A stretch of DNA of 12,113 nt, taken from IMG/VR virus record IMGVR_UViG_2703718787_000020. The stretch is one strand, 5' to 3'. Shown here in pieces: positions 1 to 6,000 of this stretch (position 1 is its first letter; each line of letters starts with the position of its first letter). Origin of the DNA: a virus (lineage: Duplodnaviria > Heunggongvirae > Uroviricota > Caudoviricetes). A program made the position numbers.

Positions 1-3000
1 ATGCGTATAGGACAAAATCGTTTTTTGGGGGCTATACACATGTTGCTTTCAGACCTTGCTATCCGTCGCGCGAAGCCAAAAGAGAAAGCCTATACACTCA
101 ATGACGGCAACGGGCTTTCGTTACTCATTGAGCCGAACGGTTCGAAGGGCTGGCGATTGCGATACAGGTTTGCAGGCAAGCCCAAAATGTTGTCGCTGGG
201 TGTTTATCCTGAGGTGTCCCTTTCTGATGCCAGGACGGCAAGGGATGAAGCCAAAAGGCTTATCGCTGGTGGAGTTAATCCGAGTGAGGTCAGAAAGGCC
301 CAAAAGCGAGAACAGGCGAACAAATGCGGCAACACCTTTGAGGCGATCGCCCGTGAGTGGTATGAAAAACGCCTGGACCGATGGTCTCCCTCATATGCAG
401 AGGAAATGATAGAGACGTTTGAAAAAGACGTTTTTCCGTACATTGGAGGTAGGCCCATCGCAGAGATTAAGCCGATGGAATTGCTCGCGGTTCTATCCCG
501 TCTTAATGACCGTGGCGCAACTGAAAAATTGCGTAAGGTTCGCCAGCGATGTGGCGAAGTGTTCCGGTACGCAATAATTACCGGACGCGCTGAATATAAC
601 CCCGCTCCTGATCTGGCAAGCGCATTTGCACCACACAAAAAAGAGCATTACGCGTATCTGAAAGTTGATGAGCTACCGGAATTTTTCCGCGTTTTTAATA
701 CGTACACCGGAAGCCAGATCGTCAAGCTGGGTATGCGATTGTTGATTCTTACTGGACTTCGCCCAGGTGAATTACGGCAGGCAGAGTGGCAGGAGATTGA
801 TTTTGATAATCGTCTGTGGGAAGTGCCGAAAGAACGAATGAAAATGCGCCGTCCTCATTGCGTGCCACTTTCAGAACAGGCGATCGCTATTCTGGAACAG
901 TTAAAACACATGACGGGGCAGTATCCGTTTATTTTCCCTGGTCGAATACAGCACAGTAAGCCGATGAGTGAAATGGCTATGAACGTGCTTATTCGTCGTA
1001 TTGGCTATGCAGGGCGCGTTACTGGTCATGGGTTCCGGCATACCATGAGTACGATTTTGCATGAGCAGGGTTATAACTCCGCGTGGATAGAAACGCAGCT
1101 GGCGCACGTCGATAAAAACTCGATCCGTGGCACATACAATCACGCGCAATACCTGGACGGACGGCGGGAGATGCTCCAGTGGTACGCCGACTATATGGAC
1201 TCACTGGAACAGGGCGGTAACGTGGTGCACGGCAAGTTTGGTGTATGTGCATAAAAACGACTGGACAAGTATACAGATGTATACTAACGTACACGGAAAG
1301 CTACAGGTAATATCCTTACAGATGGTTTTTCACGCAGTTACCCCATCATGTATGGACGGCGCTCCTTGTAACAACGAAGATGGAGTCTTCTACGCAGCTG
1401 AAAAGCTGGATGCTCTTTAACAGCCTTTGGTGCTTTCCTGATGCAGGAAAGAATAGGGATACATGCACCTTTACAATGCATGTAATGATTCACCAATGAG
1501 GCTGCGGAGCGCTGACAAAGCGCAATTGCTCTCTTGCCTGCCCACCATGCCCTGAAAAAGGGCGCTCTTTAAAACTACTGGACGTCACGCCTAATCGTGT
1601 GACCCCGCCGAAAAGCGGGAATAGCTCTACCTTGCTGGAGCATACCAACCACCAACCAAACAATCTGAATTTATCTTATGCAATACCACAACATGTTTTC
1701 ATGTTGTGGTTTTTGTCGTGTTCGTAATTTGACGCAAATAAAACTCTTGCTAAGCCACAGGAGGGGATTTTCGCGTCAACATTAAGGAGATTGATAAATG
1801 GCTAATAACAATTCATTCATCCGTCTTTCTGAGGTTATGCGCCGTACTGGTTACGGTCGCGCATGGATTTATCGCCTGATCAGCCTGGGGCGTTTCCCTA
1901 AACCGGTAAAAATTGGTTCCCGCTCCGTGGCTTTTATTGAAAGTGAAGTCGACGAATGGATTAACCAGCGTATTGATGCTTCTCGCAACAACGCCGCGTA
2001 ATAATCTTTTGGGAGGGGGATATTCTCCCCCAGCACTAAACCTGATTCGATAGCAGGAGTTTTCAATGAAACGTCCGAATGTGCCCGTACAGGGGCAGGG
2101 CTTCGTTCAGCCTGAAATCAGCCAGAACGATATATTGATTCGCCACAAAGCAAAGTCGCGTATTGATTCCCGCCTGTTTGCTGAACGCATCGGCATAAAG
2201 CACAAAAGCCTTTATTCGCTTATTCAGAAGCACAAAACCGGATTGCGTGAACTGGGTATCCTTCCGTTTCAAACGGAGCGATTAAAAACCAATCAACACG
2301 GAGAGCGTGAACATAAGTTTGCTCTGCTGAATAGCGATCAGTTTGATTACATGCGCCATATCGTGAGCCATTTCGCCGCTGAGCGTATGAAACACGTTAA
2401 GCAATACTTAGAGGAGGTTTTATCAAATTATCGCGCTGGTGGCTCTGTACGGCGCGAATATCCGCATGATGCAGGAATGGCAGGCAAAACAAAGGCGACC
2501 ACGAAAGGGTCGCCAGTGGAGATAAAGGAAATCAAGCGCATCACCAACTATGCCATGAGTGTAGCTGGTGGACAAGGCTATCAGCCAGGCGGTCGGTTTT
2601 TAGTGGCTTTTAACCGCCGTGGGTATTTCTCGACAAAATCTTCAAGGGCAAATTTTTTAGCTTTTGTATGTGATGCCTTTGACTCGTCATCACATGTTTT
2701 TCCGCGCCTTATCCTGTTTTCAATAAAACGGGAGGCGGCCTTTTTATTCAGCGATGAATCAATGGGGCTGCTCCCTGTTTGCTGCTCGACAATGGCATCC
2801 ATGAGTAGTTGGTGTTGTAGTTGTCGTAAAAATTTCTCATCTTCTGGTGGTAAATCCATACTTATTTCCTGTACAGCGGAGCGACGCAGCACCTCACACC
2901 ACGGCGCTGATGGTTGTTATTCGTTTTATGGAGTCAGAGAAGCAAAAGCGGATCGCTATCGGTTTTTAGGCGAGATTAATCGCCGTGGGTATTTGTCCAG

Positions 3001-6000
3001 AAATGCCTCAAGCGCAAATCGTTTTGGTCTGGTGAGAGGAGAGGGATTAAGCAAAGACTCGCGTTCCAGGCGTACTTTTTCGCGCTGGCGCTCAAGTATG
3101 GATAATGCGATTTCCTGTAATTCTTCATTTGTCATTGTCTGTACCCGTAAAGCGGTGCGCTGTAGTACCTCATATCACAGCGCAGGTATTTTTTATGGTT
3201 GTAATTTGCGTGATGATTCAGGTCGCTTTGCGACATACTGCATAAACATAAATAACGTGATGTTATTATGTGCTTTCAAAGAAAACGCAGGTATTTTTCG
3301 CACAAACTTCTCTCGCAACACATCCGACCACTTAAGCAAAAAAGCGGCATATACTGAGGCTATCCCTTATAAAACGGGGATCGGGATTACCACCCCGCAG
3401 GAGTTAGAGGCGATACACGACGCGCCAGCGTCTTTTTTTGTATCGGCGCACACGCACACCTCAACAATGGTGGGCTGTATGGGGCCGACTTCGGTCGGGC
3501 TGGTTTCCTCTAACGCCAGTTGTGGTAACCCTGTACAGTCCACCGCCAGCGAGCTTACCACCTCCGGCGGTGGGTATAATCCCAAAGTCAGAGGAGCCTT
3601 TCACATGGCTGTATCCGCACGCCCTTACTTTGTCTGGCGCTTTATGCAGTGCCTGACAGGCAGCATTGCAATATTCACCGTTACCGCTGCCACTGAGCGC
3701 GAAGCACGCGCCCAGCTGCCGCACGCACATCTGATTTTTGTCGCCCGTATCCGTCAGGAGGTGACTCATGCTTAAAACCTTCCGTGTCTTTTCCCGTGCC
3801 GTTAATGCACGCGGCTATACCGTTGGTATCTCGCAGAACGTGAAGGCCGAAAACGTCCAAGCTGCAATCAGCACAGTAATTAACAAATCAGCTAAAGCCG
3901 GTTTATCCGGCGTAATTATCCACTCCGTTCATGAAATTAAGGGGGGGCAGTAATGCAGGAAATGACACTGGCAGAAGCCTCGCTGCAAGCGCAACAGGTC
4001 GAAGTAATCAGCCGCATGATTGAACGCATGATTGAACGCAACCACGAAGAAATAGACGACCATGACCTTTCTGTTATTGCCGGACTTATCAAACAACTTT
4101 CCAGCAATGTGGCGGTGTGGTTAATGACGGAGGAAGAAAAACGCGGCGAACAATAACGGCTAAAAATAAACGGGAAATAAAGATTAAGACGACTCCTTCA
4201 GGAGATTAATTCAATGGCATCAAAAAATACTGGCTTAACTGCCAGTAGCAAAACTCACCCCGAATTCATGCGCGGGGATATTTATCGCGATAAGTACGGC
4301 GGCATCGTGACGATTATCAGCACGAGAGAACGACGTATCACCTACCGCCGTGAAGGGTATGACTATGACTGCGTGATGCCCCTGTATCAGTTCAGTCGTG
4401 ATTTTTCCCTGATGCAGGCCGTGCCATGTGGTAAGCCAGCCAGCAACGCAAAAGCAGAGGCGAACATCCGAAAGATGAAAAACATGATTAACGCATTCAG
4501 GGGCAAGAAATGAAAAGCGCACCGAATTTAAAAAAACAGCCGAAAGACAAAATGACCGAAGTCATTATCTTTGCGGGTAGTGATGCCTGGGCACATGCGA
4601 AAGAGTGGAGCGAATGGGCCGGAAAGCATATTGCAGCAGATGATACACCGCCCGTTATTCTTGGACCGAAACAACTGGCGAGCCTGGAAGACACGAAAAT
4701 CATCGATAAAGGGCGCAATTACGTGCGCGTTTATCGTGCTGGTGAAATATCAGAGACAGCACTTTTACAGATAGCAACACTGCTTGCGGTGGCGGGGGTA
4801 AAGGAGGCACGTTGCTACAGCGGCTTTGTTGACCAGCAGCCGGAGGACTGGACACCGCGCATGGCTGGACTGAAGGATGATGCGGAACGCGGCAACTGCC
4901 TGGTGATCAATCTTCCGGCAAAGACAAATTTCACCGGAAATTATGATGACGAATTAAAACCCCGCGTTGAATGCCGTCCTGATGGCGTTTACTGGGTGAC
5001 GCCAAAGGTTGATAAGCAATCTGGCGAAATTATCCGTCCGTTCGAATGGCTGTGTTCTTCCGTTGAATTACTCGGTTCAGGTGTCATTGGTAACGAGCAT
5101 TACCGCGTGATGCGCTGGACAGATTCGACAACAAATCGGCTTGTCACTATGGCTGTGCCTTGCTGCGGAATAGGCGACACTGACGGCTGGCGATTACTGA
5201 AAGCCAACGGGCTTAAAGTCACGACAAACGGAAAACACAGGATCCCCCTGGCTGACTGGATGCAGTTAGGCGGACAGCATGAGGAATGGCACTTAAGCAC
5301 GAAAGCTGGCTGGCACTTTGGCGCGTACATCATGCCGGACGGTACGGTTATCGGCGAATCTGACAAGCCCGTTTTGTTTACCGGAAAAAGTGCCGCGATT
5401 AACGGTTATTCCGTGGCAGGAACGGCGGAAAGCTGGCGCGACAGTGTGGCGCGGCTGGCTGGTGGCAATCCGTTCATGATGCTGGGTATAGCGACGTCAT
5501 TATCCGCGCCATTAGTCGGGCTGACAGGCGCTGATGGTTTTGGCGTGCATTTTTTCGAGCAATCCACAGCAGGCAAGACCACAACGCAGAGCATCGCGTC
5601 GAGCTTGTGGGGCGATCCTGAGGCGCTGCGATTAACCTGGTACGGAACGGCGCTGGGGATAGCTAACGAAGCAGAAGCACACAATCACGGACTCCTTCCA
5701 CTGGACGAGATAGGGCAGGCAGGAAGCCCCCGTGACGTGTACGTATCCTCATACACTTTGTTCAATGGATTCGGAAAATTACAGGGGGCAAAGGACGGCG
5801 GCAACAGAGAGCTGAAAAACTGGCGGACCGTTGCTATCAGCACCGGAGAGGTGGATATCGAAACATACCTCAAAACGTCGGGGATAAAAGTTAAGGTCGG
5901 GCAACTTGTGCGCCTGCTCAATATCCCGATTCAAAAAGCCACGCAGTTACACGAATACAGCAACGGAAAGGATCACGCTGACGCATTGAAGGCGGCATGG

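What the first reader, a model, noticed from the sequence alone, without database searches (positions are those of the whole stretch)
2066..3775. Rha-like ORF with no stop codon for 1.7 kb: over-extended, fused or degraded gene
The ATG at 2066 has a good RBS and the first ~125 residues look like a Rha/antirepressor N-terminal domain. The same frame then stays open for a further ~440 codons of Ser/Cys/Arg-rich, non-protein-like sequence that runs across the two antisense genes, an AT-rich promoter-like stretch and an intrinsic terminator. A real 569-aa protein is unlikely; the alternatives are a missing stop (pseudogene or sequencing frameshift around 2410-2470, where another frame reads ...ANIRMMQEWQAKQRRPRKGRQWR*) or a chance long open frame favoured by the antisense genes and GC-rich leader.
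Basis: partly seen in the sequence, partly recalled or inferred. Interest (0 to 1): 0.45.

Follow-up and report, generated by a model that had tools for sequence, protein, structure and literature searches.

The report
Stop-free reading frame spanning immunity region
The 1.7-kb open frame is real and not chance: it looks like an enlarged version of phage P4's "eta" frame, probably kept free of stops so ribosomes can ride across two opposite-strand genes and an RNA immunity switch.

Summary
The ORF 2066..3775 (+, 569 codons) exists as described. It is neither a chance frame nor a sequencing error. Between the Rha-like part and the last 56 codons it has 0 stops in 388 codons, against 15 and 24 in the other two + frames (P about 1e-6 to 4e-9). 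The same frame occurs in many independent E. coli assemblies.

The frame is a composite:
- a complete Rha-type N-terminal domain (aa 1-132);
- the antisense of two real minus-strand small genes and their terminator;
- a promoter region;
- an isrK/seqA-like leader with terminator;
- a C4/CI-type immunity RNA with its a1/b1 and a2/b2 target sites;
- a nested 56-aa Icd/Kil-like gene (ATG 3605) that supplies the stop.

Phage P4 has the same layout on a smaller scale: alpA homolog, then eta (199 codons) holding seqA and CI RNA, with kil nested at its end. In P4, translating eta is reported to stop immunity-dependent termination.

In sister islands the frame reaches 807 codons over five minus-strand genes. 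Those genes evolve as proteins yet never create a stop in the overlapping + frame.

Best reading: an enlarged eta-like ribosome track, mis-annotated by PGAP as a 546-aa "Icd-like protein". This is a new variant of a known kind, and the mechanism is inferred, not shown.

The parts
1798..2001 (+). alpA/vis-type regulator gene directly upstream of the long frame; positional equivalent of P4 vis (ORF88)
   Evidence: Pfam Phage_AlpA, 73.1 bits. PGAP annotates it as a helix-turn-helix regulator.
2066..3775 (+). The 569-codon stop-free frame, read here as eta-like. PGAP annotates 2135-3775 as a 546-aa 'Icd-like protein'.
   Evidence: RBS AGGAG at 2055-2059.
2066..2461 (+). Rha-type N-terminal domain (aa 1-132). 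The C-terminal half of intact Rha regulators is absent.
   Evidence: BLASTP 51% identity, E 2e-43, to an intact 239-aa Rha; homology ends at VRREY. Pfam Phage_pRha is below its cut-off.
2484..2514 (-). Intrinsic terminator of the minus-strand cassette: hairpin GGCGACC-CTTTCGT-GGTCGCC followed by a T run
   Evidence: Terminator scan. It lies about 65 nt past the stop of the minus-strand ORF at 2581.
2581..2892 (-). Minus-strand small gene 1. Likely start is the ATG at 2859 (92 aa, MDLPPEDEKF...), with AGGA 8 nt upstream. Belongs to the ...KFALEDFVEKYPRRL family.
   Evidence: A 92-aa homolog at 93% identity is annotated in E. coli (P0123). The family substitution pattern is pos2<pos1<pos3 in the minus frame.
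2956..3135 (-). Minus-strand small gene 2 (59 aa), a paralog of gene 1 (...RFALEAFLDKYPRRL)
   Evidence: (75-nt repeat D1, spacing 366 nt = 122 codons).
3136..3361 (.). Divergent control region. Includes the AT-rich stretch and a putative PLE-like -10 element, TATACT, at 3350-3355, just before the isrK-model start.
   Evidence: Sequence and position relative to the isrK hit. The promoter is inferred; the consensus scan found none.
3362..3438 (+). isrK/seqA-like leader RNA ending in an intrinsic terminator (stem 3419-3432 plus T run). Carries C4 target sites b1 (TTACCAC, 3387-3393) and a1 (GTTAGAGG, 3403-3410).
   Evidence: Rfam isrK 49.1 bits (cut-off 50) and c4-a1b1 19.5 bits. Terminator scan. 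Complementarity to the C4 loops read directly.
3463..3550 (+). C4/CI-type antisense immunity RNA. Recognition loops CCTCTAAC (3507-3514) and GTGGTAA (3522-3528).
   Evidence: Rfam RF01695, 77.7 bits (cut-off 45), full-length match.
3555..3596 (+). Downstream C4 target sites b2 (TTACCAC, 3555-3561) and a2 (GTCAGAGG, 3587-3594). Site a2 overlaps the Icd RBS AGAGGAG (3590-3596).
   Evidence: Direct sequence complementarity.
3605..3775 (+). Nested 56-aa Icd/Kil-like gene with its own RBS. It is in frame with the long frame and shares its stop codon.
   Evidence: NCBIfam NF033153 phage_ICD_like, 48.1 bits (cut-off 25), on aa 522-564. Same arrangement as P4 kil, 65 aa, nested in eta.
3768..3953 (+). 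First downstream gene. Its ATG overlaps the long frame's stop (ATGCTTAA), which suggests translational coupling into the replication operon.
   Evidence: phrog_3672, E 2e-23.

Best explanation
The frame is an enlarged equivalent of phage P4 eta. It is a long reading frame that starts just after the alpA-type gene and ends at the stop of a nested Icd/Kil-like gene. Inside it lie the island's RNA-based immunity module (isrK/seqA-like leader, C4/CI RNA and its target sites) and, unlike P4, a Rha-type N-terminal domain and two minus-strand small genes.

What selection appears to preserve over the middle ~390 codons is the absence of stop codons, not the amino-acid sequence.

Proposed mechanism (inferred by analogy with P4):
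1. In the quiescent state, the internal constitutive promoter makes short transcripts that are processed to C4 RNA.
2. C4 RNA pairs with a2/b2 and blocks the Icd RBS, so transcription ends early.
3. When the upstream alpA-operon promoter fires, ribosomes load at ATG 2066.
4. They translate without a break across the antisense cassette, the leader terminator and the C4 target sites to the Icd stop.
5. They hand over to the coupled downstream genes (3768 onward).
6. This continuous translation shields the RNA from Rho and from C4-dependent termination, so the replication genes are expressed despite immunity.

Shown here: the anatomy, the stop-codon depletion, the minus-strand coding signal and the layout shared with P4.

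Inferred: that the frame is translated and that translation prevents termination.
For: (1) Stop depletion. The frame has 0 stops in 388 codons against 15 and 24 in the other + frames; P is about 4e-9, or about 1e-6 under a null that preserves the minus-strand proteins.

(2) Recurrence in differing contexts.
- Sister loci have 475-574-codon frames ending at the Icd stop. They begin at or overlap the stop of whatever gene lies upstream: Rha, an AntA remnant or a GIY-YIG nuclease.
- One contig has an 807-codon frame over five minus-strand paralogs; the other + frames there carry 33 and 49 stops.
- Predicted products of 380-757 aa differ by whole modules inserted or deleted in frame.

(3) A sample chosen only by an Ash/Icd match (31 IMG/VR loci).
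- 28 of 29 loci show chains of overlapping long + frames, 1.2-2.2 kb in total, reaching upstream from the last Icd stop.
- At 12 of 27 distinct junctions an ATG lies within 10 nt of the upstream stop.

(4) The minus-strand genes are the ones under amino-acid selection. Their substitution pattern is pos2<pos1<pos3 in the minus frame. Yet all 27 distinct ORFs of the two families (10 non-redundant) have 0 stops in the overlapping + phase, against 30 and 30 in the other two antisense phases. The expectation from their own codon usage is 7.5 stops, P 9e-5.

(5) Same order as P4. P4 reads vis, then the eta ATG overlapping the vis stop, then isrK/c4-a1b1, then C4 (the CI RNA), then kil (65 aa) nested in eta.

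(6) Published P4 mechanism. Eta translation prevents termination, Kil is the truncated nested form, and eta is coupled to the alpA homolog. This is PMC10111431 summarising Forti et al. 1999.

(7) The immunity module is intact, including a2 overlapping the Icd RBS.

(8) The frame's stop overlaps the next gene's ATG.
Against: - There is no expression, Ribo-seq or genetic data for this island, so translation and anti-termination rest on analogy.
- ATG 2066 is 64 nt from the alpA stop, not overlapping it as in P4.
- No promoter upstream of alpA was identified. No P2-type late-promoter motif was found there, and the consensus promoter scan found nothing in 1700-4300.
- In most sampled satellites the frame that ends at Icd is only 165-205 codons. 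Continuity further upstream depends on re-initiation between overlapping frames.
- Part of the stop depletion inside the two window minus-strand genes follows from their amino-acid content: P(0) is 0.18 and 0.24.
- Many of the compared loci are close relatives, so they are not fully independent.
- The Forti 1999 paper itself could not be read.
Confidence: 0.6

Rival explanations
1. It is a genuine multi-domain 'Bro-network' protein (Rha domain, linker segments, Ash domain, Icd domain) whose full amino-acid sequence is functional. This is what PGAP and the published PICI annotation imply.
For: - Full-length 569-580-aa homologs exist at 85-100% identity in many genomes.
- Pfam Phage_ASH (33.6 bits, above the cut-off of 26) and NCBIfam Icd-like hits are present.
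- The N-terminal Rha domain is real.
- The literature treats P4 eta and such ORFs as domain-swapping Bro-network genes.
Against: - The middle 390 codons are Ser/Cys/Arg/Phe-rich. That is exactly what the reverse complement of E/D/Q/R/K-rich minus-strand genes gives when the third codon positions are shared.
- The substitution pattern indicates amino-acid selection on the minus frame.
- Modules are deleted, duplicated and swapped with only the reading frame preserved.
- The 'Ash' match (nt 3350-3610) coincides with the isrK-like and C4 RNA genes, whose RNA conservation can explain it.
- AlphaFold gives a mean pLDDT of 27, about 20-25 over residues 140-520. The alignment is shallow, so this is weak evidence.
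Confidence: 0.12
2. The stop-free frame has no function. It is a by-product of the composition and codon bias of the minus-strand genes and the conserved RNA genes, inherited by closely related islands.
For: - Given their protein sequences, the two window minus-strand genes avoid + stops with P 0.18 and 0.24.
- Most loci compared share 89-100% identity in this region.
- In decayed relic copies in O157:H7 and O104:H4 the frame is broken yet still stop-poor: 13 stops against 18-30 in the other frames.
Against: - The non-genic parts (217 codons) are also stop-free, P about 3e-5.
- Ten non-redundant minus-strand genes from two unrelated families show 0 stops against 30 and 30 in the other antisense phases.
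- Unrelated inserted modules are also open, as in the 807-codon frame.
- Successive frames start at the upstream gene's stop.
Confidence: 0.15
3. It is a degraded or mis-sequenced Rha gene that lost its stop (pseudogene, or a frameshift near 2410-2470) and then runs on by chance.
For: - The Rha C-terminal half is missing relative to intact 239-aa Rha genes in sister islands.
- In one sister genome PGAP marks the neighbouring Rha gene as frameshifted.
Against: - A chance run-on is excluded.
- Identical sequence occurs in independent assemblies.
- The alternative frame is only 37 codons long and unrelated to Rha C-termini.
- The segment 2313-2580 is conserved in all sister loci downstream of their last upstream gene and in the same frame.
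Confidence: 0.03

Closest known systems
Phage P4 eta/kil nested genes in the PLE-CI RNA immunity region (Forti et al. 1999, as summarised in PMC10111431)
   Same: - Located right after the alpA/vis homolog on the same strand.
- The frame contains the seqA/isrK-like leader and the C4-family immunity RNA.
- It ends at the stop of a nested short Kil/Icd-like gene with its own RBS.
- Pfam Phage_ASH matches the RNA-bearing part.
   Different: - P4 eta is about 199 codons; this frame is 569, and up to 807 in relatives.
- P4 eta's ATG overlaps the vis stop; here there is a 64-nt gap with a separate RBS.
- P4 eta has no Rha domain and no minus-strand genes inside it.
- Function has been tested only in P4.
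Phage P1/P7 immI operon (c4 RNA - icd - ant)
   Same: - C4 RNA with two recognition loops.
- a1/b1 sites upstream and a2/b2 downstream, with a2 over the icd RBS.
- A small Icd-like ORF as the first translated gene.
   Different: - No ant gene follows; the downstream genes are small unknowns and a DUF927 primase-helicase.
- The long upstream in-frame extension is not part of the classical P1 description. That statement rests on my own knowledge and was not checked here.
Gram-negative PICI / P4-like satellite 'Bro zone' genes (Mageeney et al. 2023, PMC10111431; EcCIMP1, PMC11773190)
   Same: - Island order: int, alpA, Bro zone with C4 and isrK hits, primase, SSB, PerC.
- The ORF carries Phage_pRha-like and Phage_ASH segments.
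   Different: Those papers treat the ORFs as domain-swapping proteins and do not mention opposite-strand genes: 'antisense' and 'opposite strand' have 0 occurrences in PMC10111431. Here most 'segments' between the N-terminal domain and Ash are the antisense of real minus-strand genes.
Rha family phage regulators (Pfam Phage_pRha)
   Same: The N-terminal 132 aa are 51% identical to an intact Rha.
   Different: - The C-terminal half is absent.
- The Pfam score is below the gathering threshold.
- The domain is fused to about 440 codons of non-protein-like sequence.

Membership tests
P4 eta-type read-through frame | Starts immediately downstream of the alpA/vis homolog on the same strand (translationally coupled in P4) | tested here: inconclusive
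   alpA is at 1798-2001 and the ATG at 2066 has its own AGGAG, so the position is met. A 64-nt gap replaces P4's overlapping ATG/stop. In sister loci the frame's ATG does overlap the upstream gene's stop.
P4 eta-type read-through frame | The frame contains the immunity RNA gene and its upstream target (seqA/isrK) | tested here: met
   isrK-like at 3362-3438 and C4 at 3463-3550 lie inside the frame. P4 has the same order.
P4 eta-type read-through frame | Shares frame and stop codon with a nested short Kil/Icd-like gene that has its own RBS | tested here: met
   ATG 3605, RBS 3590-3596, in frame, stop at 3773-3775; NF033153 scores 48.1 bits. P4 kil is 65 aa and nested in eta.
P4 eta-type read-through frame | A constitutive promoter internal to the frame produces the immunity RNA precursor | tested here: inconclusive
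   Only a candidate -10 element, TATACT, at 3350-3355 next to the isrK-model start. The consensus scan found no promoter.
P4 eta-type read-through frame | Translation of the frame suppresses immunity-dependent transcription termination | not testable with these tools
   Only indirect support: stop-codon avoidance and coupling to the downstream gene.
C4 antisense RNA immunity module (Rfam RF01695, P1 immI type) | Covariance-model match above the gathering score | tested here: met
   77.7 bits against 45; full length, 1-87 of 87.
C4 antisense RNA immunity module (Rfam RF01695, P1 immI type) | Two loop sequences complementary to paired target sites upstream and downstream, the downstream one covering the first gene's RBS | tested here: met
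   Target sites at 3387 and 3403 upstream, 3555 and 3587 downstream. Site a2 overlaps AGAGGAG.
Icd-like cell-division inhibitor (NCBIfam NF033153) | HMM match above the curated cut-off | tested here: met
   48.1 bits against 25, but only on aa 522-564 of the 569. The name therefore applies to the nested 56-aa gene, not to the whole ORF.
Icd-like cell-division inhibitor (NCBIfam NF033153) | Inhibits host cell division when expressed | not testable with these tools
   No experimental data.
Rha family regulator (Pfam PF09669) | Phage_pRha domain above the gathering score | tested here: not met
   23.4 and 26.5 bits against 29.9. Pairwise homology to an annotated Rha is nevertheless strong, E 2e-43.
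Rha family regulator (Pfam PF09669) | Full-length architecture with a C-terminal half, as in the 239-aa Rha of sister islands | tested here: not met
   Homology stops at aa 132; nothing beyond resembles Rha.
Ash protein family (Pfam PF10554) | HMM match above the gathering score | tested here: met
   33.6 bits against 26 on aa 429-515, which is nt 3350-3610. The matched stretch coincides with the isrK-like and C4 RNA genes, so the match may reflect RNA conservation rather than protein conservation.

The most novel reading that the evidence does not exclude
The frame is a 'ribosome track'. It is a 570-800-codon reading frame whose only selected property is having no stop codons. It is laid antisense across a cassette of real minus-strand genes and across an RNA immunity switch, so that transcripts from the alpA promoter stay translated and escape Rho- and C4-dependent termination.

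Two consequences follow:
- The minus-strand genes are constrained at synonymous sites to keep the opposite frame open.
- Much of the reported 'domain swapping' of Bro-zone proteins in PICIs and P4-like satellites is really the swapping of opposite-strand gene cassettes and RNA modules inside such a track.
Probability: 0.5. Interest if true: 0.7.

Novelty: new variant of a known kind. Interest (0 to 1): 0.55.

Why it matters
Practical consequence: thousands of E. coli records carry 380-757-aa "Icd-like" or "Ash family" proteins that are probably not proteins in the usual sense. The name belongs to a nested gene of about 56 aa, and two real minus-strand genes in this window go unannotated because of the long call.

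Biological consequence, if the proposed mechanism holds:
- The P4 eta principle, translation as an anti-termination device that bypasses RNA-based immunity, would extend to PICI-type islands and to a much larger scale.
- It would be a clear natural case where selection acts on the openness of a frame rather than on its product.
- That selection would also impose synonymous-site constraints on genes on the other strand. This bears on the debate about antisense overlapping ORFs in bacteria.
- It would give a concrete reason why Bro-zone ORFs look like endlessly domain-swapping proteins.

The idea is directly testable with nonsense mutations that are silent on the other strand.

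Tried and rejected
- Scan of species-representative genomes with an Ash/Icd alignment (A2): 75 pattern matches, none confirmed. I switched to IMG/VR contigs.
- Forti et al. 1999 could not be read by PMID or PMC id. A secondary summary was used instead. Two literature searches returned nothing relevant.
- My first test of stop avoidance in minus-strand genes was circular, because the ORFs had been chosen inside open frames. I discarded it and redid the test without that condition.
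- RNAduplex energies for C4 against its flanks were not clearly better than shuffles: 7 and 29 of 300 shuffles reached the observed value. I rely on the short exact complementary motifs instead.
- Pfam, NCBIfam and PHROGs gave nothing for the window's minus-strand ORFs. The RHH-like look of sister-locus minus-strand proteins is unconfirmed; only sub-threshold hits turned up.
- AlphaFold on the 569-aa sequence gave pLDDT 27 everywhere. The 11-row alignment is too shallow for this to count for much.
- No P2-type late-promoter motif (TGT-N12-ACA) lies upstream of alpA, and the sigma-70 scan found no promoter in 1700-4300.
- The frameshift idea was rejected. The alternative frame is a 37-codon stretch without Rha similarity.
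- P0115 could not be traced to a contig.

Full report
**Observation.** The window is 100% identical to E. coli STEC2018-607, in an island next to tRNA-Gly. The gene order is: integrase, alpA-type regulator (1798-2001), the ORF in question, two small genes, DUF4222, a DUF927 primase-helicase, 21-bp iterons, SSB, ProQ/FinO, PerC paralogs and a Q antiterminator. This is the organisation described for Gram-negative PICIs and P4-like satellites.

ORF 2066..3775 (+, 569 aa) is present as described, with AGGAG 6 nt before the ATG. PGAP annotates 2135-3775 as a 546-aa "host cell division inhibitor Icd-like protein".

**Is it chance?** No.
- Between the end of Rha homology and the Icd start (2441-3604, 388 codons) the frame has no stop. 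The other two + frames have 15 and 24. Shuffles average 19.4, giving P(0) of about 4e-9.
- A conservative null keeps the two minus-strand proteins, resamples only their synonymous codons, and uses the other frames' stop rate for the remaining 217 codons. It gives about 1e-6.
- The sequence is not an assembly error. The same 569-aa product is recorded from 55 contigs, and near-identical loci occur in several complete genomes.

**Anatomy of the frame.**
- aa 1-132 (to about nt 2461) are 51% identical (E 2e-43) to the N-terminal part of intact 239-aa Rha regulators of sister islands. Homology stops at VRREY and the Rha C-terminal half is missing. Pfam Phage_pRha is sub-threshold.
- Next comes a minus-strand intrinsic terminator (2514-2494 plus T run).
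- Then two minus-strand ORFs, 2581-2892 (probable start 2859, 92 aa) and 2956-3135 (59 aa). They are paralogs sharing ...[KR]FALE[DA]F..KYPRRL. Their relatives are annotated as small hypothetical proteins in E. coli and Shigella.
- The region 3136-3361 is an AT-rich divergent control region.
- From 3362 the sequence is a textbook C4-type immunity module:
  - an isrK/seqA-like leader ending in an intrinsic terminator (49.1 bits against a cut-off of 50);
  - a full-length C4 RNA at 3463-3550 (77.7 bits against 45);
  - short sequences complementary to the two C4 loops both upstream (3387, 3403) and downstream (3555, 3587), the last overlapping the RBS of a 56-aa Icd-like gene (ATG 3605; NF033153 48.1 bits against 25).
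- That small gene is in frame with the long ORF and supplies its stop.
- The Pfam Phage_ASH match (aa 429-515, nt 3350-3610) coincides with the two RNA genes.
- The frame's stop overlaps the next gene's ATG (ATGCTTAA).

**Which strand codes in the middle?** The third codon positions of the + frame and of both minus-strand ORFs coincide, and bases 1-2 of each + codon are the reverse complement of bases 1-2 of a minus codon (and frame arithmetic).

Among members of the two minus-strand families found in related loci, substitutions follow pos2<pos1<pos3 in the minus frame: 0.25/0.32/0.51 and 0.38/0.47/0.51. That is the signature of amino-acid selection on the minus strand. If the + frame were coding, the order of the first two values would be reversed. 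AlphaFold gives no confident fold for the 569-aa product (pLDDT 27), but the alignment is shallow.

**The open frame recurs.**
- Sister E. coli loci have 475-574-codon frames ending at the Icd stop. These begin at or overlap the stop of whichever gene lies upstream: Rha, an AntA remnant or a GIY-YIG nuclease.
- The protein database holds many 380-757-aa "Icd-like" products that differ by whole modules inserted or deleted in frame.
- One contig has an 807-codon frame (other + frames: 33 and 49 stops) lying over five tandem minus-strand paralogs, all in the same shared-third-position phase.

Database proteins are an ascertained sample, so I also took 31 IMG/VR loci selected only by a match to the Ash/Icd part.
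- There the frame ending at Icd is usually 165-205 codons, the size of P4 eta, and longer in five loci.
- In 28 of 29 loci, chains of overlapping long + frames extend 1.2-2.2 kb upstream.
- ATG codons lie within 10 nt of the preceding stop at 12 of 27 distinct junctions.
- The junk-like upstream frames again overlie protein-like minus-strand small genes, of the FALEDF family and an RHH-looking family.
- Without conditioning on openness, all 27 distinct minus-strand ORFs (10 non-redundant) have 0 stops in the overlapping + phase, against 30 and 30 in the other antisense phases. Their own codon usage predicts 7.5 stops (P 9e-5).
- In decayed relic copies in O157:H7 and O104:H4 the frame has acquired stops.

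**Comparison with P4.** On the P4 genome the order is:
1. vis (the alpA homolog);
2. an open frame of 217 codons whose ATGs overlap the vis stop (eta, about 199 aa);
3. the isrK and c4-a1b1 hits;
4. C4, which is the CI RNA;
5. kil, 65 aa, with RBS CAGGAGG, nested in eta.

According to PMC10111431, which summarises Forti et al. 1999:
- the constitutive promoter is internal to eta;
- its transcripts terminate early through CI/seqA pairing;
- Kil is the truncated form;
[quoted passage not shown] The window frame matches P4 eta in position, content and nesting. It differs in being about three times longer, in carrying a Rha domain, in running antisense over two genes, and in starting 64 nt after alpA rather than overlapping it.

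**Most likely mechanism (inferred).** Ribosomes that start at 2066 on transcripts from the alpA side translate without interruption through the antisense cassette, the leader terminator and the C4 target sites to the Icd stop. They then couple into the replication genes. This protects the RNA from Rho and from C4-dependent termination. Transcripts from the internal promoter are untranslated upstream of icd and remain subject to immunity. The N-terminal Rha domain may in addition act as a DNA-binding module; that was not examined.

**Rivals.**
- A genuine multi-domain Bro-network protein: confidence 0.12.
- A functionless by-product of composition and shared ancestry: 0.15.
- A degraded or mis-sequenced gene that runs on by chance: 0.03.

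**Novelty and verdict.** The kind of element, eta/kil nested in a C4-RNA immunity region, is known. In the literature I could search, I did not find the extension over opposite-strand genes with stop avoidance at their synonymous sites. The PICI paper that discusses these ORFs treats them as domain-swapping proteins and never mentions antisense genes.

My verdict: a new variant of a known kind, of moderate interest, with a clear annotation consequence and a simple decisive experiment.

Noticed in passing
window 3350-3610: The Pfam Phage_ASH (PF10554) match falls exactly on the isrK-like leader plus the C4 RNA gene. The 'Ash protein family' may largely be the translation of conserved RNA genes within eta-like frames. 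Several PHROG 'transcriptional regulator/repressor' families match the same stretch.
   Followed up: partly
window 2581-2892 and 2956-3135 (- strand): Two unannotated minus-strand small genes define a paralogous family (...[KR]FALE[DA]F..KYPRRL) seen only in E. coli/Shigella 'hypothetical proteins', with no Pfam, NCBIfam or PHROG match. PGAP misses them here because of the long + call. Function is unknown.
   Followed up: partly
L014 2320-2499, L017 1005-1184, L019 2009-2320, L024 2321-2500 (- strand): Sister satellites carry a second minus-strand family at the same place (MATGxKNAKSQ..ARIPHEV..GESTGQF..RRQRRKAKE). It looks like ribbon-helix-helix regulators, but Pfam gave only sub-threshold hits.
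   Followed up: partly
L003/L007 3061-4036; L016, L021, L032, L033: Many related islands have two or three tandem C4/Icd modules in series, each ending a long + frame that overlaps the next. The C4 regions come in several sequence types, presumably different immunity specificities.
   Followed up: partly
window 6674-6939: 21-bp direct repeats (TGAGGCAACAATTGCTCATTT, 4.5 copies at 6747-6840), with related copies at 6674-6691 and 6883-6939, lie just downstream of the DUF927 primase-helicase gene. They are probably the island's replication-origin iterons.
   Followed up: no
window 1686-1709: A perfect 10-bp inverted repeat, CCACAACATG-TTTT-CATGTTGTGG, lies about 90 nt upstream of alpA. It looks like an operator. 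No promoter was identified here.
   Followed up: no
window 2011-2031: A G/C-rich inverted repeat (GGGAGGGGG ATATT CTCCCCC) without a T run lies in the 64-nt gap between the alpA stop and the ATG of the long frame.
   Followed up: no
window 7946-8362, 8382-8675, 9593-9895, 11442-11840: The island carries a ProQ/FinO-family RNA chaperone gene, at least two PerC-family regulator genes and a phage Q antiterminator gene. A third PerC-like ORF at 9600-10064 overlaps the second.
   Followed up: no
L008-L010 (E. coli O157:H7, O104:H4 and others), about 3001-3631: Decayed copies of the minus-strand cassette and promoter region, 75% identical to window 2720-3343, sit next to IS remnants in hundreds of E. 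coli genomes. PGAP annotates either strand, depending on the strain.
   Followed up: partly
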